This document shows, in pieces, positions 1,316 through 64,000 of a stretch of 64,000 bases of DNA. Source of the stretch: Candidatus Minusculum obligatum (GTDB lineage: Bacteria > Patescibacteriota > Minisyncoccia > Phycocordibacterales > Phycocordibacteraceae); assembly GCA_002331145.1 (NCBI GenBank), contig DCYT01000001.1, positions 90,002-154,001 of the forward strand. The letters run 5' to 3'. A model generated the notes under the pieces. That model saw only the letters and a program-made list of their open reading frames with translations. It made no database searches and was not told the origin of the DNA. Both the position numbers and the translations under genes were made by a program. Each line of letters begins with the position of its first letter. The first letter of the stretch is position 1.

Positions 1316-3064
1316 TTACTTTACAGCTTTTTCAAATGCTTCAATGTCTTCTTCGAGCGCCTTAAGCCCCTCCTTAAATACTTCTCCATCTTTAAATGAA
1401 AGACCGATGTTTTCAAAGATTTCCTCTGCCGGCATAGATCCTCCACTTGTTAGGAATGTATCAATCTGCTTTGCATACTCTTTATCCTTTTTATACCGGG
1501 CAAAAAGTGCACGAGATACAAGCTGTCCATATGTATAGGTGTATACATAGAAGAAGTTTCTAAAGTGACTAATATAAATATATGAGTACCCATCATCATC
1601 TGAAACAGATACTGCATCACCCAACTGATCTTTTAGGTGTTTTGTGAGCATTTTTGCAATATCTTCCTCTCCTACAAATCCATCTTCTCGAATCTTTGCA
1701 TGGAGCTCTCTCTCAAAATTATAAAAGGTTGTCTGCCGAGAAATAGAAGAGATATCGTTTTGAATTGAATTATGTAGAAGCAAGAGCTTATCTTCCTCCG
1801 GAAGCTCCTGAAGCAACTTCTCTCGAACTACAGCCTCAAAGAAAGTGCTGGCAGTCTCTGCTACTGCAGTTGAGTACCCCTCATACATTGGAGACTGTGT
1901 CTTACTTCGCTCTGAGTGAATAGCGTGCCCCATTTCATGCGCCAATGTTTCAAATGATCGTAGGTTATCTACATGATTTAAAAGAAGCATTGTTGGAATT
2001 CCAACACTGTGTGCGCAGAATGCTCCACCGCTCTTTCCTTTCTTTGGATATACATCTATCTGTCCATTATCTAAGAATCTTTGGAATGTTTCAGCGTAGA
2101 GAGGATTTACTTCTCCAAATGCATCCTTTACAAGCTCAATACTCTTTTCAAATGAAAATTCAGTACTAAACTTCCCAATATCTATATTCTTATCCTCGTA
2201 TCTAAGTTCTTCTCCTAGATACTTTGCTTTTGCTGCATAGAAGCGGTGCGAAAGCGAGAATGCCTTTGTTACCGTATCTGCAAGAGAATCAATGACTTCT
2301 TGCCTATTTTCATTCCCTCGAACAGTTGGCTCCTCTGGAGTTTTATATCCTCGAAGCTCTCCATTTATTTTGTGATTTGAAATAACAGCATTCATCTCAT
2401 GTGCTGACATTTCTCCCATGTCTTTTAGAACAGCAACAATGTTTGCCCATAGTTCTCTTCGCTTTTCTTTTGGAAGCTTATTGAGTTGCTCAAGCGCTTC
2501 AGGTAAAGGAAGATCTCCATCACTAAATGGCACCATTTTCTTTGCTTCAATAGTTGAAACCATACTCACCCAACGCCCGCGTGATACATCACTCTTAAGT
2601 GAAAGAATTTTCTCTTCTTTTTCTGAGAGAGTGAACTGAGCATTTTCAAATAGCTCCTTAAGGTAGTACTTATAGTGCTCAAGCTCTGGAGCATTTAAAA
2701 AGATCTCCTGCTGCTCTTTTGATGCGGCACCAAGCTCTACACCAAAGAAAAGAGTTTTGTTTCCTGCCTTTGTGTACCGCTCAGACAATTTAGACTCAAG
2801 AGCAAGTGCCTTAGTATTTGTTGCATCTAAGTCTCGAACAAAGAAAAGATAGTAGAGAGGTTTAACAAAAGCTTTCTTTGCTTCCTCTTCTTGCAAATCA
2901 AGAGCTTCTTTAAGAGCTTTTGGATCGGTTAGGAAACTTTTATCTTCAGTATATTTCTTCGCAAAAGATTCTTGAGAGCCTTCAAAAGCTTCCATGTCTT
3001 TTTCAATCTGAGGATCCTCAAGATTTTTGTAGTATAGATTTTCTAAATCCCAATTAGTCTTCAT
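1316..3064 (-). CDS. pepF: Oligoendopeptidase F-like M3 family metallopeptidase
   Basis: The 582-aa ORF carries an HEMGHAIH zinc-binding HExxH motif. Its length and context are typical of M3B PepF. Confidence 0.8.
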   Translation of the reverse strand: MKTNWDLENLYYKNLEDPQIEKDMEAFEGSQESFAKKYTEDKSFLTDPKALKEALDLQEEEAKKAFVKPLYYLFFVRDLDATNTKALALESKLSERYTKAGNKTLFFGVELGAASKEQQEIFLNAPELEHYKYYLKELFENAQFTLSEKEEKILSLKSDVSRGRWVSMVSTIEAKKMVPFSDGDLPLPEALEQLNKLPKEKRRELWANIVAVLKDMGEMSAHEMNAVISNHKINGELRGYKTPEEPTVRGNENRQEVIDSLADTVTKAFSLSHRFYAAKAKYLGEELRYEDKNIDIGKFSTEFSFEKSIELVKDAFGEVNPLYAETFQRFLDNGQIDVYPKKGKSGGAFCAHSVGIPTMLLLNHVDNLRSFETLAHEMGHAIHSERSKTQSPMYEGYSTAVAETASTFFEAVVREKLLQELPEEDKLLLLHNSIQNDISSISRQTTFYNFERELHAKIREDGFVGEEDIAKMLTKHLKDQLGDAVSVSDDDGYSYIYISHFRNFFYVYTYTYGQLVSRALFARYKKDKEYAKQIDTFLTSGGSMPAEEIFENIGLSFKDGEVFKEGLKALEEDIEAFEKAVK

Positions 3065-3617
3065 ATAATGACAGCTCTTTATCTAATGTTTCCTTATATA
3101 ACTCAACAATTTTACTCTCCCCTAATTTCTCCTTCACAATATCGTATACCGCACTGTGATACCAGATGTATTTTTTATCAAGGAGACCCAAGCTTTTCAC
3201 AAACATAAATCCCTGATCATTATGAATACGATACTTGGACTGCATATTGTGAATCTTATCTGCTGCTGCAATAAGTACAGCATCTACAGGACCATCTTCC
3301 AGCTTCTTAAGATAGATATCTTTTCGCTCCTTCCAGGGAATATTTCCCTTTGGTTCACTTACATTATCTACCAATTCGCTTACACGCTCTCCGAAAAACT
3401 TTATAAGTTCTTCATGCGTCATCTCAGTATCCTCTACCGTATCGTGTAAAAGTGCTGCAATAACGATGTCTTCATCTTCTGTGTAGTTAGACACTAACGA
3501 AGCCACTGAGAATGGGTGTGAAATATAAGGAAGCTCATCATGCTCCTTTCGAAATTGCCCATGATGATATTGACTTGCAATGCGAATCGCATTTTCTAAC
3601 CGTGGTGTGTATTTCAT
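3054..3617 (-). CDS. HD-domain metal-dependent phosphohydrolase (small RelA/SpoT-like HD protein)
   Basis: It has the H...HD...D pattern (ISHPFSVASLV...LLHDTVEDT). It overlaps neighbouring genes by a few nt, consistent with an operon. Confidence 0.65.
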   Translation of the reverse strand: MKYTPRLENAIRIASQYHHGQFRKEHDELPYISHPFSVASLVSNYTEDEDIVIAALLHDTVEDTEMTHEELIKFFGERVSELVDNVSEPKGNIPWKERKDIYLKKLEDGPVDAVLIAAADKIHNMQSKYRIHNDQGFMFVKSLGLLDKKYIWYHSAVYDIVKEKLGESKIVELYKETLDKELSLYED

Positions 3618-4216
3618 ACAAATTGTTTTAGTACTTTAAAATCTTCCTTTATTACGCTCTTTAGTTTTTGATTATATATAGATGCAGAAGGATGATAGAG
3701 CGCTACAATTTTAATTCTTTGTGCACCAACTTTCCCCTCAAAAACTGACCCATGCAGTTCAGAAATAGTTTTCTTCTCTATGTCTACACCATATCGATCA
3801 AAGAGATACTCCATTGCAAACCTTCCAAGTGCCACCACTACCTTGGGAGCAATGATTTCTATCTGCCTATCAAGATACGGAGCATACCATGCAATCTCTT
3901 CCTTTGTCGGATCCCTATTCTTTTGTGGTCGATCTTTTACAACACTTGTCACAAACACGCTTTCCCTATCAAGATTAATGCTTTCAAAAAGTTCATCTAG
4001 TATTTTCCCTGTCTGACCACAAAACGGACGTCCTGTCTCTGCTTCATTTTTTCCAGGAGCTTCACCAACCATAACTATCTTTGCATTTGTCCTCCCTTCT
4101 CCAGGAACTGGAAGATAGTTATTTTCTTTTCTATATGAATACAGCGGTGCTTTCTTTGCTTTGATGAGTTCTTTTCGAATTTCTTCTAATTTTTCTTTCT
4201 TTTGCTGAATATTCAT
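3614..4216 (-). CDS. Uracil-DNA glycosylase, family 4 type
   Basis: It has the GEAPG motif (VMVGEAPGKNEAETGRPFCGQTG) and a C-terminal HPS motif (ALYHPSASIY). The 4-nt ATGA overlap with the downstream HD gene indicates an operon. Confidence 0.8.
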   Translation of the reverse strand: MNIQQKKEKLEEIRKELIKAKKAPLYSYRKENNYLPVPGEGRTNAKIVMVGEAPGKNEAETGRPFCGQTGKILDELFESINLDRESVFVTSVVKDRPQKNRDPTKEEIAWYAPYLDRQIEIIAPKVVVALGRFAMEYLFDRYGVDIEKKTISELHGSVFEGKVGAQRIKIVALYHPSASIYNQKLKSVIKEDFKVLKQFV

Positions 4217-4224
4217 ATTTTTAC

Positions 4225-4260
4225 AACTACGTAGTTAATTACGTAATTAACTACGTAGTT
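4225..4260. promoter_or_regulatory. A perfect 36-bp palindrome built from three consecutive 12-bp dyads (AACTACGTAGTT / AATTACGTAATT / AACTACGTAGTT), 9 nt upstream of the udg start. It is a candidate operator or RNA hairpin.
   Basis: Read directly: aactacgtagttaattacgtaattaactacgtagtt equals its own reverse complement. A related triple dyad is at 48576..48611. Confidence 0.6.
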
Positions 4261-4513
4261 CTTTTTCAAGCAATTTTTTCTTCATTTCACTTCCTCCACG
4301 ATTGTATTCCCCCACAGAACCATCAGCTTTTATGACTCGATGGCAAGGAACAGTCTTATCGTAGTTATTTTTCATAATAGAACCAACAGCACGAGCAGCC
4401 CCTGGTGCCCCTGCTACAGCTGCTACTTGCCCATAGGAAAGAGTTTTTCCTTTTGGGATCTTTCGTACGACATCCCGGACTCTCTCTGTAAAATTATTTT
4501 TTGACCTTTCCAT
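4247..4513 (-). CDS. Minimal methylated-DNA-protein-cysteine methyltransferase (MGMT/Ogt C-terminal DNA-binding domain with the active Cys)
   Basis: It has the PCHRV active-site motif and an HTH (LSYGQVAAVAGAPGAARAVG). The start is set at the internal Met (MERSKNN), so that the overlap with the upstream ORF is only about 20 nt. Confidence 0.65.
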   Translation of the reverse strand: MERSKNNFTERVRDVVRKIPKGKTLSYGQVAAVAGAPGAARAVGSIMKNNYDKTVPCHRVIKADGSVGEYNRGGSEMKKKLLEKELRS

Positions 4514-5270
4514 CTTTATGTTTTTGTAAAAGAAGTTGTCCTGCAGCACTTCTATATGGGCAGTGCTCACAAAGCTCTCCTGACTCTGGAACTTCGTCAC
4601 TATCTAGCGTTTCTTTAATGGCAAGAAGTCGCTCTTCAATCCAATCAGTATTTCCTTCATATGCAATAACATCCATATCGAACTTAAGTTCTGCATCAAA
4701 CTCATCCTCTCCTTTTCTTCCATTTGCATAGACAAAGTATCCAGTATCAGAAACCTTGAATCCATTTTGTCGAAGCAGCCACTGATATACATCCATCTGC
4801 CGCTGGTACTGCTCTCCCCACCTCCCCTCAAGTGTTGGCTTCTCTTCTTTTGAAGTTGCCTTGTAGTCTACAACCATAAGTTCCCCTTCTTTATTTACCC
4901 AAATATCATCAACCGCTCCAAAGATTTCAAAACCAGTTGCCTCGTGGAAATGAGTAACTCCGGTAAAGTTCTCTCGCCATGTTTCTAGATCCTTGTGCTG
5001 GTATGGCACTGCATCAATATCAAACTCCTTCATTAAAGGATGCGGCTCTTCCTTCTCTCTATATGTATCAAACTCTTTCTTTAGAAGTGCGTCTACTGCC
5101 AAGTTAAGTGTAAAGCTTGGCATTCCAGGACGTGCTATCCCATGACGCTGGTCAATATAAAAACAACGAGGACACTCTCCAAAATAATCTATCTTTGTTC
5201 GACTTATTCTATGAGTTTTCTTTTGTCCTGGTGTGTAGTTCCAATTCTTATTTCGTATCTTATATGCCAT
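4494..5270 (-). CDS. Cas4/RecB-like PD-(D/E)XK nuclease with four Cys residues
   Basis: The Cys residues are N-terminal CPRC and C-terminal CEHC. There is a D...E-x-K core (GAVDDIW; LMVVDYK) and a QxxxY motif (GEQYQRQMDVYQW). Confidence 0.65.
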   Translation of the reverse strand: MAYKIRNKNWNYTPGQKKTHRISRTKIDYFGECPRCFYIDQRHGIARPGMPSFTLNLAVDALLKKEFDTYREKEEPHPLMKEFDIDAVPYQHKDLETWRENFTGVTHFHEATGFEIFGAVDDIWVNKEGELMVVDYKATSKEEKPTLEGRWGEQYQRQMDVYQWLLRQNGFKVSDTGYFVYANGRKGEDEFDAELKFDMDVIAYEGNTDWIEERLLAIKETLDSDEVPESGELCEHCPYRSAAGQLLLQKHKDGKVKK

Positions 5271-5273
5271 AGA

Positions 5274-6125
5274 TTATTTTTGCTCTTTATATGGCATTTT
5301 ACCTAAGTGCACAGCTTCCTGCAAAACTTCCTTTATATGATCCTTTGAAAGCCCCAAAGAAAGCACTGCCTCCTTATTCTTTTCCAAATCTTCACAGAGA
5401 ATAATTCCTTTTTGAATAAGAGATTGCTTCTGAGATCTTGAAAGTGTTGTGAGAGTTGTAATGGGAAATACCTCATACTTCATAATCAAATCCAGAAGTG
5501 AATTCTTTTCAGGGTAACTCCATCCAATAATATCGAGCCCCACACACTCAGCATACTCAACAGCATTCTTCGTGAATTTAGTATTTGTAATAAGCAATCC
5601 TTTATTTACCGGACAACTAGATGGATCCTCTGCTCGCTTCTCAAAAATGTCATTCATTCGAGCGTGTACGTAAAGCGCTGTTCGCACATTTGTTTTAAAT
5701 CCAATGCTGTTATGGAACTTCACCTCAACAGCAATACATTCCTCATCATTGCTTGCAACCACATCAAGCTCATGATTAATACACTTTCCAGGAACTACCT
5801 GGCGAAGTTTTGTTTTGTATCCCATCTTCTTATACAAAGCTCCCACAAAATCCTCAAATGGAAATCCTGTAGGTCCCAGATCAAAAAGAGCACGGCGAAG
5901 TGAGTACCTTGCAGCAGTTGGCCTGCTTTCCCTTCGAAGCTCTCTAAAAGCTGTTTTGTAAATTTCTGAGGTTGTAACACCAGATACAGCACCTTCTACA
6001 ACCTCACTTACAATCTGCTTTGCGAGTTTTTCCTCTGCTCCTGCATTTACAAGAGAGTTAATAAGCTTCTCCTCACGAAAGACTTCGCTTGTTCCATCAG
6101 CTTTTGTTACGTAAAAGTCGAGCAT
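5274..6125 (-). CDS. ATP-cone domain fused to a restriction-endonuclease-like (Mrr/PD-(D/E)XK) domain
   Basis: The N-terminus (MLDFYVTKADGTSEVFREEKLINSL) resembles an ATP-cone. The central region (IAVEVKFH...KTNVRTALYV) resembles a Mrr-type REase core. Confidence 0.6.
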   Translation of the reverse strand: MLDFYVTKADGTSEVFREEKLINSLVNAGAEEKLAKQIVSEVVEGAVSGVTTSEIYKTAFRELRRESRPTAARYSLRRALFDLGPTGFPFEDFVGALYKKMGYKTKLRQVVPGKCINHELDVVASNDEECIAVEVKFHNSIGFKTNVRTALYVHARMNDIFEKRAEDPSSCPVNKGLLITNTKFTKNAVEYAECVGLDIIGWSYPEKNSLLDLIMKYEVFPITTLTTLSRSQKQSLIQKGIILCEDLEKNKEAVLSLGLSKDHIKEVLQEAVHLGKMPYKEQK

Positions 6126-20900: not shown

Positions 20901-21052
20901 CACCACTTGCATGGGCAATTATCTTTGGACTTACCTTCTCGGTTGTTCTGACTCTTATCCTTATCCCAACAATCTATAGGCGTTGGCCAGGAATGCTTCC
21001 AGAGGAAAAGGAAGCAAAGAAACTCGCAGAAGAACAAGCAGTGCAGCATTAA
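17918..21052 (+). CDS. RND family efflux permease (AcrB/HAE1-like)
   Basis: The 1044-aa ORF has 12-TM architecture with two large periplasmic loops and typical TM4/TM10 regions. Confidence 0.9.
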   Translation: MFHFWNFFLSKRSFSYLLIVALLFFGFTSIVSIPKESSPEVVVPIGVVSSGLPNASAEDVETLITNKLEQEFRSSLDDVKQITSTTREGSVGVVVEFEASADLDTSLRKLRDAADTARSELPDDAFDPVVSEVNLADQPILTVAVLGSVPVEELTKVANFVEEELEGVSGVSNVDTVGVRDEEVQVIVSQESLKTYGIGISDVTRGLASANTSVPVGDISIGNAKYAIKFEGDIESPEDVAGLPILAVGGEPVYVRDIADVRVGLAKTRSISRVSVEGSQPQNAISFSVYKRSGGDITSIARDVRNKVTELEETKELQGLTTLITYDNGELVEDDLVNLTRTGIQTISLVILILLVAIGWREALIAGLAIPLSFFIGFIGLYTSGNTLNFVSLFSLILAVGILVDSAIVVVEGINGRMKEWHGKLQSAREALREYSYPITAGTLTTIAVFAPLFLVSGVTGQFIASIPFTIIFVLAASLFVALGLIPLIASTFLKRRTTTKFGKLQEKKTEEIRSWYKKNVQKIVGNKRRETIFIWTIIAMFILSFTLPAFGLVRVTFFDQGDVDNLFVDIELPQGTTLARSNLEAQKVEAILLQDSRIEDFTTGVGVASPFNGSGSADSKFANMQITLKEDRKQTSTEILEDIRASLAHITTSDIRVDEPSDGPPTGDAIALELSGTNNDDLIAAGTTVRQFLEGIPGTANVLTSARDNVAQFVLTIDRAKVVELGLSPLAVAEVLRTSISGVDATSIPQNDEDIDIVVKTNLAADYTDPHETNRATLDEVRQLTVQGPRGPVLLGSLVTESYEVSNAVISHKDGKRILTVSAGLAKDGNTYQILGEIMKGRESLDLPAGVSLNIAGESDESNQAFVEMLLSLIVGIIAMLAILVLQFNSFRYALYVLSVVPFSLIGIFFGLMISGQALSFPSIMGFIALTGIVVNNSIILIDVMNNIRRKNPEKSIDEVVLEGATARLRPILLTTLTTVIGIMPLIFASALWAPLAWAIIFGLTFSVVLTLILIPTIYRRWPGMLPEEKEAKKLAEEQAVQH

Positions 21053-21090
21053 AAATAAAACCCCACACAACTGTGTGGGGTTTTATTTTT
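21051..21090. terminator. Bidirectional rho-independent terminator between the RND operon and atpC
   Basis: The sequence aaaaataaaaccccacacaactgtgtggggttttattttt forms a 9-bp GC stem flanked by A and T runs. Confidence 0.8.
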
Positions 21091-21334
21091 ATAGAATCAC
21101 CGTCACCTGATTGTTTGAAATCTCAATGACACCAGCATGTTTAAACTCAATGTCATGCCTGTGCTCTTTTCCGTCATAGACAACAGCAGTACAAGGCACC
21201 ACAGGAGCTACAAATGGTTCGTGATCTGCAAGCACTGTTATTTCACCATCTACACACGCAAGTGTGAGTGAATGTGCATCACCTTCGTAGAGAGATTCTC
21301 CAACTTTAGAAATAGTAAGGTGAAAAGATTTCAT
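21089..21334 (-). CDS. atpC: F1 ATP synthase epsilon subunit
   Basis: It is 81 aa and is last in the atp operon. Confidence 0.8.
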   Translation of the reverse strand: MKSFHLTISKVGESLYEGDAHSLTLACVDGEITVLADHEPFVAPVVPCTAVVYDGKEHRHDIEFKHAGVIEISNNQVTVIL

Positions 21335-47346: not shown

Positions 47347-48543
47347 TCAAACGTAGTACCGATCGCAAAACTCTTTCCTAAACTCTTCAAACCTTCCCTC
47401 TTTAATAGCTTCTCTCATGTCATCAACTAACTTCAAAATAAAGTAGAGATTATGCTGTGAGACAATCATTCCTCCAAGCATTTCTTTTGCCCTAAAGAGG
47501 TGTGCTAGATACGCACGAGTATATGGAGCAGATGGAGAATCAGGAAGGTCCTTCTCTATTGGATTCATATCCTCCTTGAAAGGTTCTTTTCTTAGATCAA
47601 TAGGTCCATCAAGTGTGTATGCTGTTCCGTTTCGGGCAAGACGTGTTGCTGCAACACAATCAAATGTATCAATACCACGTGCTACTCCCTCAAACATATC
47701 TGCTGGCTCTCCAATGCCAAGCAGGTGCCGAGGCTTATCCTCTGGCAAATGCTTAAGTCCCGCGTCGAGTGCTGGCCCCAAGTCTTCTTTACTAAAACTT
47801 CCGCCAATTCCATATCCATCAAAATTCATATCCCCCAATGTCTTTGAAGATTCTTCTCGAAGATCAGTGTGCCTACCACCTTGCACAATTCCAAAAATTG
47901 CCTGTTTGCTGTCTAGGTTTCTTCGGTGTGCATCAAGAGAACGCTTCGCCCACTTGTGCGTTCTGTTCATTGCTTCTCTTTGATAATCATAGTCCGCATC
48001 AGGAGATGTGCACTCATCAAAAGCAAAAAAGATGTCAGCTCCAAGATTGTGTTGAATCTCAACTGATCGCTCCGGCGTAAATCGATAGAGTGTCCCATCT
48101 ATATGAGATGTGAAGGAAACTCCCTCATCATCAACTATGGCGAGCTTCCCATGCTCATTTAATATTGCTTCATCAAATACTGCAGGAGTTCTACTTTGCA
48201 CCTCCTTTTTCTCTCCCATTTTAGAGACACTCTTATCAAAACCAGCGCCAAGACTAAATACTTGAAATCCTCCAGAGTCCGTAACAATGGGACCTGCCCA
48301 ATTCATAAACTTATGGAGTCCTCCATGCTTTTTAACAAGCTCATCTCCTGGCTGCAAAAAGAGGTGGTAGGTGTTTGCAAGCACTACTTGTGCACCAATA
48401 TCCTTTACCTCATGTGGATGCACTCCTTTAATAGTTGCTTTGGTTCCAACAGGAATAAACGCAGGAGTTTCAATATTTCCGTGCGCTGTTTCTATGATCC
48501 CTGCTCTTGCAGCACCATCTTTGTGTGTTTTTGCAAACTTCAT
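47347..48543 (-). CDS. tgt: Queuine/guanine tRNA-ribosyltransferase family (Tgt)
   Basis: It has the motifs IETPAFIPVGTKATIKG, VTDSGGFQVFSLG and FDCVAATRLARNG. I did not see the C-terminal zinc CxCxxC motif. Confidence 0.85.
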   Translation of the reverse strand: MKFAKTHKDGAARAGIIETAHGNIETPAFIPVGTKATIKGVHPHEVKDIGAQVVLANTYHLFLQPGDELVKKHGGLHKFMNWAGPIVTDSGGFQVFSLGAGFDKSVSKMGEKKEVQSRTPAVFDEAILNEHGKLAIVDDEGVSFTSHIDGTLYRFTPERSVEIQHNLGADIFFAFDECTSPDADYDYQREAMNRTHKWAKRSLDAHRRNLDSKQAIFGIVQGGRHTDLREESSKTLGDMNFDGYGIGGSFSKEDLGPALDAGLKHLPEDKPRHLLGIGEPADMFEGVARGIDTFDCVAATRLARNGTAYTLDGPIDLRKEPFKEDMNPIEKDLPDSPSAPYTRAYLAHLFRAKEMLGGMIVSQHNLYFILKLVDDMREAIKEGRFEEFRKEFCDRYYV

Positions 48544-48575: not shown

Positions 48576-48611
48576 AACTACTGAGTTAACTACGTAGTTA
48601 ACTCAGTAGTT
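48576..48611. promoter_or_regulatory. Second perfect 36-bp triple-dyad palindrome (AACTACTGAGTT / AACTACGTAGTT / AACTCAGTAGTT), 33 nt upstream of the tgt start
   Basis: Read directly: the sequence equals its own reverse complement. The central 12-mer is identical to the outer 12-mers of the 4225..4260 element. Confidence 0.6.
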
Positions 48612-48636
48612 AGAAAAAAGCACCCGTACGGGTGCC
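48612..48636 (-). terminator. Rho-independent terminator of the FKBP gene
   Basis: The stem gcacccg-ta-cgggtgc is followed by TTTTTT on the minus strand. Confidence 0.65.
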
Positions 48637-48664: not shown

Positions 48665-49162
48665 TTACTTTACTTCAAGTAGCTCAACTTCGAAGACAAG
48701 TGTTGCACCCCCTGGAATTGGTCCGTATCCCTGGTCTCCATATCCAAGATCTGAAGGAATAACAAGGACACGCTGTCCTCCCACTTTCATTCCCGCAACT
48801 CCCTGATCCCAACCAGCGATTACCTGACCTGCTCCAAGCGTAAACTCAAATGGTGCACGCCCAACAGAACTATCAAATACAGTTCCATCTTCAAATGCTC
48901 CAGTGTAGTTCACAACAACAGTCTTCCCGGCAACAGCTTCAGCGCCATCTCCGAGAACCGTGTCTTCACTTATAAGTCCTGTTTCTGGATTCACTGAAGC
49001 AGTATTAAACGCCGTGGTTGCATTTGCAAGCTCTTCAGGTGATTCAATAGTTGAGACAAGAGGCTCAGTAAGTCCTCGCCCAAATCCTATGATTGAAAAG
49101 AATGTTACAAATGCGATCACTGCAACCAGCATCGCAATTCCGTGGTTTCTGCTTTTACTCAT
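48665..49162 (-). CDS. FKBP-type peptidyl-prolyl cis-trans isomerase (secreted or anchored)
   Basis: It has an N-terminal TM segment, then the region [17 protein letters not shown]...[36 protein letters not shown]. Confidence 0.85.
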
Positions 49163-59509: not shown

Positions 59510-60832
59510 TCACTGCCCAGGTCGTCGTAAAATAACGTTCTGACGACTTCTAGCGACACAAATTCCGTTACGAATGGCGAAGCACTCAACATAGTGGTTG
59601 CCATTGTGCCTAGTGGATTCTGGGTCGTTTTTCGTTTGGTGATCTGTGATCTCTCCACGCGGTTGATCACAGCCATCGTCGTTCTTCACCTTCCATTTGA
59701 ATATGTCCGCCACGGGCGGATTTTGGCCGAGCCTGAATTCGATCTTTCGATCCACGTTTATCAGTCCTACTGCATCCAAGAAAAACGCCCGAAAGCCGCC
59801 ATCACGCGGTTGTACATGCCCGACGATTGAGAACTCGGCCTCAGTTAGAACTGGTATGCCCTGATCAAACAAAAACTCTTCTGACCCGCGCGCTCTTGGT
59901 CTTGGTGGAAGAGAAAGCAGATCTCCCACATCGTCGCCTTCATCAAATTTTTCCAACCCAACGAGAAATGCATCACGTGCTTGGATGATCAGGATTCTGT
60001 CCTGCTCATTTAGATCGTTGACGTAGTCGTCAATATTGCGATCTGAGTCGGCCCTATCAGGAAATTGGGGGTAGCGAACGAAATCTGGAACCCGTCGGAA
60101 GAACTCAAAGACAATATCGAACATCTCTGCTCGTGGGTTTTGCTGCACCCACGTTGTTATCGCCTGCTCCAGATGGAAGGACTTCAGAGCAAAGCTGTCG
60201 TTCCTTTCTTTGTGAGCACAGCGCCACCCCTTCACAAGCTTCACCGCTTTGCGAAAGTCATCGTTCTGGGCATTTGTTTGGCTGGCGATAGCTATGTATC
60301 CACGCGGGTCGGATTTGATCCAACCCATTTCGCGCTGCCCGCTCCTCACCGCCTCACGAATTTGTTGCCGTTCAACACGTGATGCTCGCGCGATCTCGGG
60401 AACAACATACGTGTCATCGCCAAACTCGTTCTGTCCATTGATGTAGGCTGGCACGACATCGACGCTGAACACCTCTTCTTCGCCGTCGAGAAAGCGGATT
60501 GTAACCGAGTGGGTTTGTCGTCCGATATGTACTTCATAATGAGTAGGATTTTCGTACTCAGCGCGCATCTGGCGCTCAAGGTCTTCCAGCGCCTGCGATG
60601 GGTCGTGATGTTCCCGGTCCCAGTTGCCCAATACGAAGAGCACATCAAGGTCGTGCAACGGGGTGATCGCCGTATATCGAGGGAAGGAACCGATTTGAAG
60701 CGAGTTCGCAACTCCTAGAACCTGCTGCACAGAGTTGTACACTAGACTTACAAAATCCCGCTCATCCTGGGTTGGGGTCAAATTATCGCGAACGTATGAC
60801 CGAAAAGCCGCGTTGAATGCATTTTTATTCAT
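59510..60832 (-). CDS. cGAS/DncV-like (SMODS/CD-NTase-type) nucleotidyltransferase, 440 aa
   Basis: It has an N-terminal helix, then GSFPRYTAITPLHDLDV (GS-x11-[D]h[D]h), a third acidic residue in VFSVDVVP, and KAVKLVKGWR. There is a C-terminal ~170-aa extension with a Cys-containing tail. Confidence 0.65.
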   Translation of the reverse strand: MNKNAFNAAFRSYVRDNLTPTQDERDFVSLVYNSVQQVLGVANSLQIGSFPRYTAITPLHDLDVLFVLGNWDREHHDPSQALEDLERQMRAEYENPTHYEVHIGRQTHSVTIRFLDGEEEVFSVDVVPAYINGQNEFGDDTYVVPEIARASRVERQQIREAVRSGQREMGWIKSDPRGYIAIASQTNAQNDDFRKAVKLVKGWRCAHKERNDSFALKSFHLEQAITTWVQQNPRAEMFDIVFEFFRRVPDFVRYPQFPDRADSDRNIDDYVNDLNEQDRILIIQARDAFLVGLEKFDEGDDVGDLLSLPPRPRARGSEEFLFDQGIPVLTEAEFSIVGHVQPRDGGFRAFFLDAVGLINVDRKIEFRLGQNPPVADIFKWKVKNDDGCDQPRGEITDHQTKNDPESTRHNGNHYVECFAIRNGICVARSRQNVILRRPGQ

Positions 60833-61337
60833 GGCCAGTTGTGATCATGCTCACGATAATATCGTTTAGAAGACGTCCACGGAAATTGACCAGAACAACA
60901 TTACGGTGCTGCTCGAGCTCCTGAATGGCATCGTTGTCGACACGGCCACCGGCTTGCGGCGCATACACAACCAGCGCTGTTCGATCCTTCTTCAGCTCCA
61001 AGATTCGTCGAAGACCGGCAAGGTTCCAATCTGGCCAATGAACAAGGAATGTTGTCGCCTCTTCTGCCCTCCCGGCGTCATTCAACATACTGACTGACAT
61101 AATATTTTTCTTAGTGAAGAGTTTCGTGTCGCCGAGAAGGTCAACGAGGCTTGTAAGCGTGGAGCCCTTGGCAAACACCACGATCTTCTTCCGCCGCAGT
61201 CCCTTCCCCAGCCGCCAAAGTGCAGGCAGGAACCCACTAAACGTCAAATAGCCAGCGTAAAGCGCACCGGCGATAGCGATTAAGATTCCGCCCCATCGAA
61301 AGTACGGAAGGGCCGCTTGTACGAATTCCATCATTGT
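60825..61337 (-). CDS. Membrane protein partner. It has an N-terminal ~26-residue hydrophobic segment (1-2 TM) and a C-terminal ~120-aa alpha/beta domain. It is an effector-like candidate.
   Basis: The start is at ATG 61337, where MMEFVQ is preceded by GGTGGT-N6, or at GTG 61376. It overlaps the NTase start by 8 nt. The strand pattern is IVVFAKG / TFLVHW / ALVVYAPQ / VVLVNF. Confidence 0.55.
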   Translation of the reverse strand, partial: TMMEFVQAALPYFRWGGILIAIAGALYAGYLTFSGFLPALWRLGKGLRRKKIVVFAKGSTLTSLVDLLGDTKLFTKKNIMSVSMLNDAGRAEEATTFLVHWPDWNLAGLRRILELKKDRTALVVYAPQAGGRVDNDAIQELEQHRNVVLVNFRGRLLNDIIVSMITTGHE

Positions 61338-61443
61338 TAAACCACCATACCATGGATTGTATTTTGTATTGCCCACACCAAGATGAGCTGCTTCGATCAG
61401 AAACGCAAAATATCAGCCTGATAGGTTCGACGGATGCCAGTCT

Positions 61444-61911
61444 GTGAGACTTGGCGGATTTGTTTCCCCAATCCCAGTCGAGTTGTTGGATTTGGCCGCA
61501 CAACGCCTTCTTGATTCACGCGCGTTGATCGACGGGTTCGAAACTTCGATACAAGCCCAGCATTTCTTTCTTTCGCTGGCCAGCGCGGCTGCGGTCGGCA
61601 AGTCAACGAAGCTCGCGGAGAGATTGACCTTCGCAGTCAGTGCGCACTGTCAGCAAGTGAAGCATCGACTGCCAATAGAGATCGCCATGGTGATCGGTGT
61701 AAGCGCGTCTGCCGCGCAACCCTCCGAGCAAGATGCCGATACTTGGCTCGGGGAGTACGCAACAAGGCTTGCTTTCGGAGTTAGAGAAACCGATGAAGCC
61801 AAAAGGTTGTTGGGCGTGATAAGCACGCTTTGCCGAGTACGCCCCTCTCTACGAGCACAGCTCAGCAAGTCGATTGTCGCTGCCCGCGCGGCTAGTTGGT
61901 TAGATGACTGA
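61444..61911 (+). CDS. Hypothetical protein (GTG start) on the GC-rich island
   Basis: The 155-aa ORF is only weakly supported, because GC-rich DNA yields many ORFs. Confidence 0.25.
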   Translation: MRLGGFVSPIPVELLDLAAQRLLDSRALIDGFETSIQAQHFFLSLASAAAVGKSTKLAERLTFAVSAHCQQVKHRLPIEIAMVIGVSASAAQPSEQDADTWLGEYATRLAFGVRETDEAKRLLGVISTLCRVRPSLRAQLSKSIVAARAASWLDD

Positions 61912-62217
61912 CTAGGATCTTCGCCCATAGCTGAGTGTTCCGCCTGGTGGCAACTCGAATGGGCGCTTTGTCGCTGATTGTGATTATCCGGCGGTGGAGC
62001 GGCATCGACATCGAACGTCCGCTTTCGGGATATACCTGACATTGAATACGCTCTGAGCGAGACGCAACTTGCGAATGCTCTGACCGGTCAAATTGCATGA
62101 TCTTGAATGAGGTAAATTTAGCACTCCAAATGGGATGCATACTCGGGCCGGGGCGCCGCAACGATGCGCGTATATCGCGCCTGAACAAGCCCATGTGGAT
62201 AGCGAAGCTATGGCACA

Positions 62218-62601
62218 ATGAGTGTGCCTTTGCCGCTAATTGCACAGGCCTATCCCTCTATGATCAACGCCAATGCCATTCGGCTTCGCGCCTGCCGCAG
62301 ACGCGGCGGGCTTGATCAAGTCGACCTCGCTTTTTTACTTGGCATCAGTCGTCACGCCGTCTCAAGGCTTGAACGTGGACTGGCAACGCCAAGTGCTGAA
62401 ATACTTATTCGTTACGAGCTAATTTTCGAAGTGCCGGCTGCAAACGTCCTACCCGACACCCGCATCCTCCTATCTGGACAAATACACGCTCGAGCGCAGC
62501 AAGCCTTAAGCCGATGCCGCCTGTCGAAGTCTGAGGCCGGTCGACAGAAGGCCATCTTTCTCCAGACGATGTGCGGACGGTTGGCTCGACCCAGCCAATG
62601 A
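62218..62601 (+). CDS. XRE-family helix-turn-helix transcriptional regulator
   Basis: It has the HTH region QVDLAFLLGISRHAVSRLERG. Confidence 0.5.
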   Translation: MSVPLPLIAQAYPSMINANAIRLRACRRRGGLDQVDLAFLLGISRHAVSRLERGLATPSAEILIRYELIFEVPAANVLPDTRILLSGQIHARAQQALSRCRLSKSEAGRQKAIFLQTMCGRLARPSQ

Positions 62602-63083
62602 CTCCCCTCTCAATTTGGGTGCTTGCGGTGGAACCCCACGCACACGGCCTAGCCTTCGCGGCGTTCGCAGCCGGTGGAGATCTCGTCGATTGGGGAAGCT
62701 ATGATGGACGCGATTGTGAGTGCAGCGCTATGCGTCAACGCTGCAGACGCTTGGTCCATGAACTTTCCCCTTCTATCGTTGGAATTGAAGATGTGGACCA
62801 GCCAGATTGCGTGCGTTCCAAGCGAATGCGCGACTTGTTGAGGTCGGTTCGCCAAGATGTCTTGGATAACGGTATAGCGGTCGTCCGCGTGCCGCGTCGG
62901 TTGATGCGCAAGCGTGTGAAGGGGTTGGATCGACATTCCTCTACACTCTACCACCTGAGTGACCGGTCTAGTGAGGTTCAGTACCTATCGGCGCACCGAT
63001 CCACCCGAGCGGTGCCGGTACGAAAGGCCATGCGTATCGGGTTGGCGGTCATCGCGACGAGGCGCAAGTCGAATATCTCGTGA
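62571..63083 (+). CDS. Hypothetical protein downstream of the XRE gene
   Basis: The 170-aa ORF overlaps the XRE gene end. No motif was recognised with confidence. Confidence 0.3.
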   Translation: MRTVGSTQPMTPLSIWVLAVEPHAHGLAFAAFAAGGDLVDWGSYDGRDCECSAMRQRCRRLVHELSPSIVGIEDVDQPDCVRSKRMRDLLRSVRQDVLDNGIAVVRVPRRLMRKRVKGLDRHSSTLYHLSDRSSEVQYLSAHRSTRAVPVRKAMRIGLAVIATRRKSNIS

Positions 63084-63315
63084 ACTTGGCTACCATCGGA
63101 GTTCGAAGGCTTATTCCTCAACCGGCCCTCTGAACCAACGTCAAGTCAGGTGTTCAACCTCGGTCAAAATTGCTCGACGAGGCTCTTCAAATTGGCCGGC
63201 TCCGATTAGCCCGTGATCGTCTGCCAAGATGCCTATCCGGCAGGCACAATTGAGGGGATTCGCCTGGTCTCTGGTTGTGATAGACTGTCTCCACACTAAT
63301 AGTCGGAGGCGGATA

Positions 63316-64000
63316 TGGACGATGCTGCAGGCAAAGCTGTAGCGATATGGATTCGCGTATCCACCGAAGACCAGGCGCGTGGCGAAAGCCCCGAGAACCA
63401 CGGACAACGTGCAAAGTTTTACGCGCACTCCAAAGGCTGGTCTGTGGAGCGCGTCTATGACCTCTCAGGGGTATCGGGACAGTCGGTGGCCAACCACCCT
63501 GAAGCCAAACGAATGATGGCCGACATCCAGAGCGGCGCGATCACAGGCCTTATCTTTTCCAAGCTCGCTCGGCTGGCCCGCAATACCAAAGAGCTACTCG
63601 ATTTCGCCGAGTTCTTTCGCGCCAAAGACGCAGATCTAATCTCACTCCAAGAAGCGATGGATACGTCATCGCCTGATGGCCGTCTTTTCTACACGATGAT
63701 TGCTGCAATGGCGCAATGGGAGCGAGAAGAGATCGCCGAACGTGTTGCGGCCTCCTTTCCCGTGCGCGCCAAACTAGGCAAGCCTCTCGGAGGCCAGACG
63801 ACGTTTGGCGATCATTGGAAAGATGGTGAGCTGGTTCCCAACCCCGATGAAGCACCCGTTCGCAAGCTCATCTATGAGTTGTTTGCCGAGCACAAACGCA
63901 AGAAGACCGTGGCTCGTCCCCTCAATGAACGCGGCTACAGGCCCCGTAAGGGCGCCAGGTTCTCCGACACCACGATCACTCGGCTAATCACCGATCCAAC
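63316..64000 (+). CDS. Large serine recombinase (resolvase/invertase catalytic domain + recombinase domain). The C-terminus is beyond the window.
   Basis: The ATG at 63316 is preceded by GGAGG. The protein begins [20 protein letters not shown] (catalytic Ser), followed by [13 protein letters not shown]...[31 protein letters not shown]. It is not in the ORF track because there is no stop within the window. Confidence 0.85.

What the first reader, a model, noticed from the sequence alone, without database searches (positions are those of the whole stretch)
4225..4260. Perfect 36-bp triple-dyad palindrome abutting the udg start and overlapping the MGMT-like gene's stop
Seen in sequence: the 36 bp are self-complementary and are built from three consecutive self-complementary 12-mers (AACTACGTAGTT, AATTACGTAATT, AACTACGTAGTT), each centred on TACGTA. 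The element ends 9 nt upstream of the family-4 UDG start codon. A second element with the same architecture and the identical central 12-mer lies upstream of tgt (48576..48611). Inference: this is a shared operator for a dimeric or tetrameric DNA-binding protein, with three tandem dyad sites at 12-bp spacing. Alternatively it is a long RNA hairpin (attenuator or RNase III site) coupling the MGMT-like and udg cistrons.
Basis: seen in the sequence. Interest (0 to 1): 0.6.

Follow-up and report, generated by a model that had tools for sequence, protein, structure and literature searches.

The report
Dispersed AbrB-type triple-dyad binding palindromes
The 36-bp palindrome next to udg is real, but it is one of at least eight conserved copies spread around this small marine Patescibacteria genome, and its sequence matches the operator that sits on the promoter of a tiny AbrB-type DNA-binding protein in related bacteria, so it is most likely a protein-binding site array and not a switch specific to udg and tgt.

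Summary
Window 4225-4260 and 48576-48611 are perfect 36-bp palindromes made of three 12-bp units (AAYT-N4-ARTT); about 1e-6 are expected by chance.

They are not specific to udg or tgt. A close relative (UBA3533) has at least 8 copies, and a 555-kb contig at about 80% identity has 7, all at orthologous positions. Most abut a stop codon. Five of eight lie between convergent genes and none between divergent genes.

The contact between E1 and the udg start codon comes from a strain-specific ~590-bp deletion. In relatives, udg has its own promoter and E1 sits at the 3' end of the MGMT gene.

The same 12-mer array lies directly on the promoter or 5' end of a ~60-aa AbrB/MazE/SpoVT-fold gene in three other lineages. 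Ten of the eleven family genes examined carry a 12-bp-periodic array there, with lineage-specific sequences.

Best reading (about 0.55): E1 and E2 are binding arrays for such a protein, placed at transcription-unit boundaries.

Main gap: the cognate gene was not found in the roughly 200 kb I could see of this lineage.

Rivals: a REP-like hairpin, or a mobile palindrome.

The parts
4225..4260 (.). E1: a perfect 36-bp palindrome of three 12-bp units, AACTACGTAGTT (4225-4236), AATTACGTAATT (4237-4248) and AACTACGTAGTT (4249-4260).
   Evidence: The identical 36-mer occurs at 5 sites in UBA3533 and several in Ga0316204_10000037.
4247..4249 (-). Stop codon (TAA) of the Ogt/MGMT-like gene (4247..4513 or ..4600, minus strand). 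The last 4 codons, ELRS, and the stop are encoded by E1.
   Evidence: The association of E1 with the 3' end of this gene is conserved in L032 and L084.
4214..4216 (-). Start codon of family-4 udg (3614..4216, minus strand), 8 nt from E1. This adjacency is specific to this strain.
   Evidence: Relatives have a 161-aa membrane ORF, a terminator and a TATACT promoter between E1 and udg.
48576..48611 (.). E2: a perfect 36-bp palindrome, AACTACTGAGTT (48576-48587), AACTACGTAGTT (48588-48599), AACTCAGTAGTT (48600-48611). It matches E1 at 30 of 36 positions, and the 6 differences form 3 symmetric pairs.
   Evidence: The same sequence is in UBA3533 at this site and at the ABC-permease site (L025, L028). 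The orthologous site in Ga0316204 carries an E1-like sequence (L066).
48612..48636 (-). Intrinsic terminator (GGCACCCGTACGGGTGCT plus a T-run) of the upstream FKBP-type gene, whose stop codon is at 48665-48667. It ends directly against E2.
48541..48543 (-). Start codon of tgt (47347..48543, minus strand), 32 nt downstream of E2.

Best explanation
E1 and E2 are two members of a dispersed, positionally conserved family of 36-bp arrays. Each array has three 12-bp units of the form AAYT-N4-ARTT.

In this sequence 'dialect', the arrays are the double-stranded DNA binding sites of a small (~60 aa) AbrB/MazE/SpoVT-fold protein that is widespread in Patescibacteria. Proteins of this fold bind DNA as dimers or tetramers, so the likely arrangement is one dimer per 12-bp unit, three side by side.

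Shown:
- In other lineages the same array lies on the protein's own promoter, the classical autoregulatory layout.
- In this marine lineage the array exists in at least 8 copies at fixed places. These places are almost always transcription-unit ends, abutting stop codons and often between convergent genes.

Inferred:
- The protein-occupied arrays act as boundary elements. They would block read-through or act as an operator for whatever lies downstream.
- E2 could therefore influence tgt.
- E1 could influence udg only in this strain. Here a ~590-bp deletion removed udg's own promoter and placed its ATG 8 nt from E1.
- Perfect whole-element symmetry is probably kept by hairpin-templated correction and/or the symmetry of the bound oligomer.
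For: 1. Copy number and context. Genome and metagenome scans with the central 20-mer found at least 8 copies in UBA3533 and 7 on one 555-kb contig.

2. Positional conservation. All 7 copies on that contig are at positions orthologous to UBA3533 copies. Flanks are about 82% identical (760/931), yet 4 of 7 arrays differ at 1 position or fewer. P(0 changes in 36 bp) is about 7e-4 per site.

3. A recurrent neighbour. All-vs-all BLASTP of ORFs near arrays from different lineages found one recurring family, a 60-64-aa protein whose gene starts 0-25 nt after the array in L010, L068 and L100.

4. Identity of that protein. It scores 37 bits against PF04014 (cut-off 24.7). The AlphaFold model has pLDDT 84.5, and its best PDB matches are MazE, AbrB-N, SpoVT and VapB with probability about 1.0. 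The family has 3309 clusters.

5. Arrays upstream of family genes. Of 11 family genes examined, 8 have a 24-nt palindrome with at least 11 of 12 pairs within 6-38 nt of the ATG. Two more have two-unit arrays overlapping the ATG. The background is 11 such palindromes in 101 kb, giving P of about 1e-15.

6. All these arrays have a 12-bp period. Their sequences are lineage-specific.

7. Proteins with the motif VRK[LI]TK go with AACT-N4-AG(T/C)T units. The arrays include the exact E1 and E2 units: AACTACGTAGTT (L010, L068), AATTACGTAATT (L115) and AACTACTGAGTT (L100).

8. A second operator of this type sits just upstream of the -10 box (TATACT) of another promoter in L115.

9. In several cases the array lies upstream of the -10 box. 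It would then not be transcribed, which argues for recognition at the DNA level.
Against: 1. No gene of the family was found in the window, or in about 200 kb of fetched DNA from this species and its relative (six-frame HMM search). The genome is larger than what I could see, so this is a gap and not an absence.

2. Placement at stop codons and in convergent junctions (5 of 8) is unusual for an operator. It is typical of REP-like hairpins.

3. Copies within one genome are identical over 36 bp, and the E1/E2 differences are strictly symmetric. This fits a hairpin-based or copying mechanism at least as well as it fits protein contacts.

4. E2's outer units are not individually dyad-symmetric.

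5. Binding was never measured. The roadblock or boundary function is pure inference.

6. Operator dialects differ even among proteins with similar N-terminal motifs (L107, L108, L110). The protein-site covariation is therefore only partial.
Confidence: 0.55

Rival explanations
1. REP-like extragenic palindrome acting through its own structure. The 16-bp stem with an ACGU loop forms in transcripts from either strand, or extrudes as a DNA cruciform, at the ends of transcription units. It stabilises 3' ends or dampens read-through without a dedicated sequence-specific protein.
For: - Stable hairpins: -18.2 and -21.2 kcal/mol, z-scores -5 to -7.
- Seven of eight sites lie within -14 to +9 nt of a stop codon, 5 of 8 are in convergent junctions against about 5% background, and none are in divergent junctions.
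- E2 followed by GCAUUUUUU passes the terminator scan.
- The symmetric differences between E1 and E2 keep the stem intact.
- From my own recollection of the literature, REP elements of E. coli share these placements. I did not check this here.
Against: - A generic hairpin does not explain why nearly the same primary sequence occurs in Spechtbacterales, Woesebacteria, Chlorobiota and Bacteroidota.
- It does not explain the 12-bp sub-periodicity, which persists where whole-element symmetry is broken (L006, L022, L023, L083).
- It does not explain the promoter position upstream of AbrB-type genes.
- Five sites already have a canonical GC-rich terminator next to the array.
- E1 has no U-tract.
- There are only about 8-10 copies per genome.
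- There is no Rfam match.
Confidence: 0.2
2. Selfish miniature mobile palindrome (a MITE, REPIN or RPE-like element) that was spread by a transposase and survives only where insertion is tolerated, at gene ends and convergent spacers.
For: - Dispersed copies are identical within one genome.
- Copies overlap and replace the last codons of genes (MGMT ..ELRS*, thrS ..PTT*, RNase H ..GTT*).
- The distribution across phyla is sporadic.
- A strain-specific deletion edge, and a jump in identity from 96% to 84%, lie exactly at E1.
Against: - All 7 copies in the relative at about 80% identity are at orthologous sites. There is no presence/absence polymorphism.
- There are no target-site duplications and no constant flanking bases.
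- No transposase or RAYT-like gene is seen in any flank.
- The one apparent in-frame 'insertion' (L027) turned out to be native coding sequence.
- There are no hits in phage or plasmid collections.
Confidence: 0.1
3. One reading: a shared operator through which one regulator co-controls udg and tgt, as a base-repair and base-exchange regulon.
For: - E2 is 32 nt upstream of the tgt ATG, downstream of the preceding terminator, and is conserved there in relatives.
- E1 is 8 nt upstream of the udg ATG in this strain.
- The arrays are operator-like elsewhere.
Against: - In UBA3533 and Ga0316204, udg is separated from E1 by a gene, a terminator and its own promoter.
- The six other copies flank unrelated housekeeping genes, and most have no downstream gene.
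Confidence: 0.07

Closest known systems
Autoregulatory operators of AbrB/MazE/VapB(SpoVT)-fold repressors, such as the mazEF and vapBC promoter palindromes and AbrB targets
   Same: The candidate binder has a small swapped-hairpin-type fold (Pfam PF04014; structural matches to MazE, AbrB-N, SpoVT and VapB). Palindromic sites overlap the protein's own promoter or 5' end. Several adjacent dimer sites are present.
   Different: - Most family genes here are stand-alone ~60-aa genes with no adjacent toxin. In two lineages the gene sits in a conserved housekeeping neighbourhood (cysS ... tatD).
- The sites are strictly 12-bp-periodic arrays of 2-4 units that form 24-48-bp perfect palindromes.
- In this lineage the array is dispersed to at least 8 non-promoter sites.
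MetJ metbox arrays (tandem 8-bp AGACGTCT palindromes bound cooperatively by repressor dimers); recalled from the literature, not tested here
   Same: Head-to-tail palindromic units without spacers, an ACGT core, and a variable unit number. One dimer per unit is the natural reading.
   Different: The unit is 12 bp, not 8. The protein fold differs (AbrB-type versus ribbon-helix-helix). MetJ sites are all at promoters.
REP/BIME extragenic palindromes of Enterobacteria and Pseudomonas; recalled from the literature
   Same: Palindromes of about 35-40 nt that are extragenic, close to stop codons and enriched between convergent genes. Copies evolve in concert within a genome.
   Different: - There are about 8-10 copies here, not hundreds.
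- The palindromes are perfect rather than imperfect.
- No RAYT gene was seen.
- The primary sequence is shared across phyla and has an internal 12-bp periodicity.
- The same sequence is used as a promoter operator elsewhere.
Low-copy chromosomal site families such as parS/ParB, matS/MatP and Ter sites; recalled from the literature
   Same: A handful of conserved, sequence-specific, often palindromic sites per chromosome, at fixed positions and independent of the function of neighbouring genes.
   Different: There is no sequence similarity to parS. No clustering could be assessed, and no partner of those protein families is implicated.

Membership tests
Operator of an AbrB/MazE/SpoVT-fold (PF04014) DNA-binding protein | A cognate protein with the AbrB-type fold exists and is genetically linked to the site. 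| tested here: met
   This holds in other lineages only. The gene starts 0-25 nt after the array in L010, L068, L100 and L115. PF04014 scores 37 bits against a cut-off of 24.7. Foldseek top hits are MazE, AbrB-N, SpoVT and VapB.
Operator of an AbrB/MazE/SpoVT-fold (PF04014) DNA-binding protein | The cognate gene is present in the genome that carries E1 and E2. | tested here: inconclusive
   A six-frame HMM search of the window and all fetched loci of this species and the Ga0316204 relative (about 200 kb) found none.
Operator of an AbrB/MazE/SpoVT-fold (PF04014) DNA-binding protein | The site overlaps a promoter or 5' end of a regulated gene. | tested here: inconclusive
   Met for 10 of 11 family genes elsewhere, and for a second promoter in L115. 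In this lineage only 3 of 8 sites have a downstream gene, and 5 of 8 are convergent.
Operator of an AbrB/MazE/SpoVT-fold (PF04014) DNA-binding protein | Direct, sequence-specific binding of the protein to the site. | not testable with these tools
   This needs EMSA, footprinting or DAP-seq.
REP elements / REPINs | A short extragenic palindrome at gene 3' ends and convergent junctions. | tested here: met
   Stop codons lie within -14 to +9 nt at 7 of 8 sites, and 5 of 8 sites are convergent.
REP elements / REPINs | High copy number (tens to hundreds per genome). | tested here: not met
   There are 8 matches in UBA3533, 7 on a 555-kb contig and 2 in this 64-kb window. No weaker copies are in the window. 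The scan required an exact 18-base core, so diverged copies could have been missed.
REP elements / REPINs | An associated RAYT (Y1 transposase) gene flanked by the repeats. | not tested
   None was noticed in the flanks. Flanking ORFs were not scanned against Y1 transposase models, and whole genomes could not be scanned.
Intrinsic (Rho-independent) terminator | A GC-rich stem followed directly by a U-tract. | tested here: not met
   Only 5 of the 16-17 stem pairs are G-C. E1 is followed by GUAAAAAU. E2 alone passes the loose scan, through GCAUUUUUU. Five sites have a separate canonical terminator adjacent.
MITE / TIR transposon remnant | Target-site duplication and insertion polymorphism between relatives. 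| tested here: not met
   There are no direct repeats at the edges. All 7 sites are shared with a relative at about 80% identity.
LexA / SOS box | A match to a known LexA motif upstream of SOS genes. | tested here: not met
   The Bacteroidetes motifs are GGA-N5-TCC and CTAA-N5-TTAG (PMC8565304). The array does not precede the uvrA, uvrB or uvrC genes that lie in the window.
parS centromere-like site | Similarity to the TGTTNCACGTGAAACA consensus. | tested here: not met
   No resemblance. The consensus is also absent from the window at up to 3 mismatches.

The most novel reading that the evidence does not exclude
A very small AbrB-fold protein, conserved across Patescibacteria and not described in the searched literature, recognises 12-bp-periodic palindromic arrays. 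In some lineages it has been recruited from simple autoregulation to mark the ends of transcription units genome-wide. There it would act as a sequence-specific, protein-based terminator, insulator or chromosome-boundary system in ultra-compact genomes.
Probability: 0.2. Interest if true: 0.75.

Novelty: new variant of a known kind. Interest (0 to 1): 0.55.

Why it matters
Almost nothing is known about gene regulation in Patescibacteria (the candidate phyla radiation). Full-text searches returned no paper pairing AbrB with Patescibacteria, and none describing this motif.

This analysis pairs a large family of ~60-aa AbrB-fold proteins (3309 clusters) with a recognisable operator grammar: 2-4 units at 12-bp spacing, with lineage-specific sequences. 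That gives a regulator-site system that can be tested directly by EMSA or DAP-seq on synthetic DNA, without cultivating the organism.

The dispersal of the array to conserved non-promoter sites in one marine lineage is unexplained. If it is functional, it would show how minimal genomes mark the ends of transcription units.

There is also a practical point. These perfect palindromes break assemblies and create scaffold gaps, which matters for the quality of metagenome-assembled genomes.

Tried and rejected
1. Eukaryotic look-alikes. About 40 metagenome hits in which AGTAGTTAACTACGTAGTTAACTACT sits inside CAGTGATGGGC... termini looked like transposase-binding repeats. They are eukaryotic hAT-type elements from gutless-worm host DNA. 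They have no bacterial gene density and carry a fragment of the hAT dimerisation domain. The resemblance is coincidental. L077 is also eukaryote-like.

2. L027 (Rikenellaceae). It looked like an in-frame insertion in a LuxC-type acyl-CoA reductase. Alignment with 13 homologues shows no insertion. NYVVNYVVNYVD is native sequence.

3. LexA/SOS box. Rejected.

4. parS. Rejected.

5. Rfam. No family matches the element.

6. BLAST of (AACTACGTAGTT)x3 against phage and plasmid collections gave nothing. The viral contig scan gave only 2 chance-like hits.

7. Restriction-site explanation (TACGTA or GTTAAC). TACGTA is not avoided, 14 observed against about 12 expected.

8. Synteny breaks at the arrays. 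The apparent break at the clpP site is a fast-evolving homologous gene at 41% amino-acid identity. Only the comF-like site and the E1 deletion are real differences. Misjoins at 36-bp repeats in low-k assemblies cannot be excluded for UBA3533 and the CESG contigs.

9. Covariation at positions 2 and 35 (A/T). All four combinations occur at roughly the frequencies expected from the marginals, so there is no evidence for covariation there.

10. P0160, P0227 and P0234 as candidates for this genome's own family member. Their contigs have a tetranucleotide correlation of only about 0.5 with the window, against 0.85-0.92 for same-lineage DNA, so they belong to other organisms.

Full report
OBSERVATION

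Window 4225-4260 (E1) reads AACTACGTAGTT AATTACGTAATT AACTACGTAGTT. Window 48576-48611 (E2) reads AACTACTGAGTT AACTACGTAGTT AACTCAGTAGTT. Both are perfect 36-bp palindromes.

The window should contain about 1e-6 such palindromes by chance. In 200 Markov simulations the longest arm was 12 bp, against 18 bp observed twice. AACT-N4-AGTT occurs nowhere else in the window.

All genes near both elements are on the minus strand.
- E1 encodes the last four codons and the TAA stop of an Ogt-type MGMT gene. It ends 8 nt before the ATG of a family-4 udg.
- E2 lies directly after the intrinsic terminator of an FKBP-type gene and 32 nt before the tgt ATG.
- E1 and E2 share 30 of 36 positions, and the six differences form three symmetric pairs.

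The element is real. An independent JGI contig spans E1 identically. It does break assemblers: Logan contigs end inside it, and UBA3533 scaffolds have N-gaps inside copies.

A DISPERSED, CONSERVED FAMILY, NOT A UDG/TGT ELEMENT

The source is a marine (Tara Oceans) Patescibacterium. I scanned public genomes and metagenomes with the central 20-mer AGTTAANTACGTANTTAACT. This found 8 copies in the close relative UBA3533 (about 96% identity) and 7 copies on one 555-kb contig, Ga0316204_10000037 (about 80% identity).

All seven copies on that contig sit at positions orthologous to UBA3533 copies:
- the MGMT gene 3' end;
- the FKBP|tgt spacer;
- the thrS 3' end;
- the 3' end of an RNase H gene;
- the 3' end of a comF-like gene;
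- the 3' end of an ABC-2 permease gene;
- the spacer after clpP.

Flanks are about 82% identical (760 of 931 aligned positions), yet four of the seven arrays differ at one position or fewer. An eighth, degenerate copy abuts the rpsR stop codon.

Seven of eight sites lie within -14 to +9 nt of a stop codon. Five of eight are in convergent junctions, against about 5% of junctions in the window, and none are in divergent junctions. There are no target-site duplications.

The tgt and ABC-permease sites carry the E2 sequence in the window lineage but an E1-like sequence in the relative. The sequence therefore changed symmetrically at a fixed site.

THE E1-UDG CONTACT IS RECENT

In both relatives the order is:
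1. the MGMT gene;
2. E1;
3. a 161-aa membrane ORF;
4. a terminator;
5. a TATACT promoter 6 nt before the ATG;
6. udg.

The window strain, and the independent contig L001, have lost about 590 bp. That loss includes udg's own promoter. One edge of the deletion lies exactly at E1, and identity to UBA3533 drops from 96% to 84% across E1. The conserved partner of E1 is therefore the MGMT 3' end.

In this strain udg has no Shine-Dalgarno sequence and no promoter of its own. Its expression must depend on read-through across E1. The hairpin of -18 to -20 kcal/mol, or a bound protein, could then matter locally. This last point is inference.

WHAT BINDS IT

Near-identical arrays occur in other phyla:
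- Spechtbacterales: (AACTACGTAGTT)x3, twice.
- Woesebacteria.
- A Chlorobiota metagenome-assembled genome: ATCT...AGAT, twice.
- Several Bacteroidota.

The 12-bp unit is kept even where whole-element symmetry is broken (L006, L022, L023, L083). A generic hairpin does not predict this.

I compared all ORFs near arrays from different lineages by all-vs-all BLASTP. Exactly one family recurred: a 60-64-aa protein whose gene starts 0-25 nt after the array in L010, L068 and L100.
- In L010 the order is TGgTATAAT, 11 nt, the array, 25 nt, ATG.
- In L100 and L115 the third unit contains the ATG.
- In L068 the third unit forms the TATAAT box.

The protein belongs to Pfam PF04014, MazE/AbrB/SpoVT. Its AlphaFold model has pLDDT 84.5 and best matches MazE, AbrB-N, SpoVT and VapB. 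The family comprises 3309 clusters. Most named members come from Patescibacteria, and some lie on Bacteroidota-like contigs. NCBIfam has no model for it.

ARRAYS UPSTREAM OF FAMILY GENES

I fetched the upstream regions of eleven family genes.
- Eight have a 24-nt palindrome with at least 11 of 12 pairs within 6-38 nt of the ATG.
- Two more have two-unit arrays that overlap the ATG.
- One, the second gene of an operon, has none.

Only 11 such palindromes occur elsewhere in 101 kb, which gives P of about 1e-15.

All arrays are 12-bp periodic, and their sequences are lineage-specific:
- TAGTACGTTC-type, a 48-bp perfect palindrome (L101).
- GCACGTCC-type (L106).
- GGCATTAATGCC-type (L107).
- TTACTGAATTAATTCAGTAA (L108).
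- GCCGTTATTAATAACGGC (L110).
- AACTCCTGAGCT AACTCTTGAGTT AGCTCAGGAGTT (L105).

Proteins with the motif VRK[LI]TK go with AACT-N4-AG(T/C)T units. Those arrays include the exact units of E1 and E2. Proteins with RTHK[LI]TV go with ACGT(T/C)C units.

In L105, L106 and at a second promoter in L115, the array lies upstream of a -10 box. It is probably not transcribed there, which points to recognition as double-stranded DNA.

INTERPRETATION

E1 and E2 are written in the operator dialect of VRK-type AbrB-fold proteins. The simplest reading is that they are binding arrays for such a protein, with three dimer sites at 12-bp spacing. In this lineage the array has been multiplied to at least 8 fixed sites at transcription-unit boundaries. 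A role as protein-occupied roadblocks, insulators or operators for downstream genes is inferred, not shown.

The main weakness is that no family gene was found in the window or in about 200 kb of this lineage's DNA. Three candidates from Tara samples belong to other organisms by tetranucleotide signature.

Rivals that remain open:
- A REP-like structural hairpin. It explains the placement and the symmetry, but not the cross-phylum sequence, the 12-bp periodicity or the promoter use elsewhere.
- A mobile palindrome. Positional stability and the absence of target-site duplications argue against it.
It is contradicted for udg by the orthologous loci and remains open only as a local effect on tgt.

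LITERATURE AND NOVELTY

Full-text searches found no paper with this motif, none linking AbrB to Patescibacteria, and none on transcription-factor regulons in the candidate phyla radiation.

The kind of system, an AbrB-fold autoregulator with a palindromic operator, is known. The new parts are the family-wide 12-bp array grammar and the dispersal to conserved 3'-end sites.

Noticed in passing
window 59510-64000; L116, L117, L118: GC content jumps from about 42% to 54-62% at about 60.8 kb. The order is: a CBASS-like SMODS/AGS_C gene (59510-60832, minus strand) with a small partner, an XRE HTH gene (62218-62601), a large serine recombinase, and then at least 10 kb of high-GC DNA with T2SS/type IV pilus genes. 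The same junction is present in three independent assemblies, so this is probably an integrated foreign island.
   Followed up: partly
L101 3430, 5413, 5880, 8171, 8617: Another Tara Patescibacterium carries a different family of dispersed perfect 24-30-bp palindromes (AACCTT...AAGGTT), with five copies in 12 kb. This is in addition to the 48-bp operator palindrome upstream of its AbrB-like gene.
   Followed up: no
L012 5046-5440: A stretch of about 390 nt without a credible ORF lies between efp and the degenerate array. It ends in an intrinsic terminator. It is probably a non-coding RNA, but it has no Rfam match at E <= 0.01.
   Followed up: partly
L031 5709 / L086 7469: A solo AACTACGTAGTT unit lies inside a coding region (it encodes N-Y-V-V) and is conserved between the two related genomes. 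In Rikenellaceae, a LuxC-type acyl-CoA reductase natively encodes NYVVNYVVNYVD with the full triple-unit DNA sequence.
   Followed up: partly
L015, L017, L028 (UBA3533); L002, L003 (Logan): Scaffold N-gaps and contig ends fall exactly inside copies of the palindrome, so the element is a systematic breakpoint for assemblers. Joins at these repeats in low-k assemblies may be chimeric.
   Followed up: partly
window 3052-4216 versus L032: Identity to UBA3533 is 96% on the MGMT side of E1 but 84% on the udg side. This suggests that a recombinational replacement, or a strain mixture, ends at the palindrome.
   Followed up: no
L108 369-3173: One member of the AbrB-like family sits directly upstream of an Eco47II-type restriction endonuclease, a cytosine methyltransferase with a MerR-type HTH domain, and Vsr. 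It may act there as the controller protein of a restriction-modification system.
   Followed up: no
window 21050-21091: A perfect hairpin with 20-nt arms (TAAAAATAAAACCCCACACA / TGTGTGGGGTTTTATTTTTA) lies at a convergent junction. It is an ordinary bidirectional terminator and is unrelated to E1 and E2.
   Followed up: no
window 5274-6125 and 4494-5270: The genes next to E1 encode an ATP-cone plus Mrr-type nuclease-domain protein and a PD-(D/E)XK Cas4-like protein. With the MGMT gene and udg they form a small DNA-repair or nuclease cluster.
   Followed up: no
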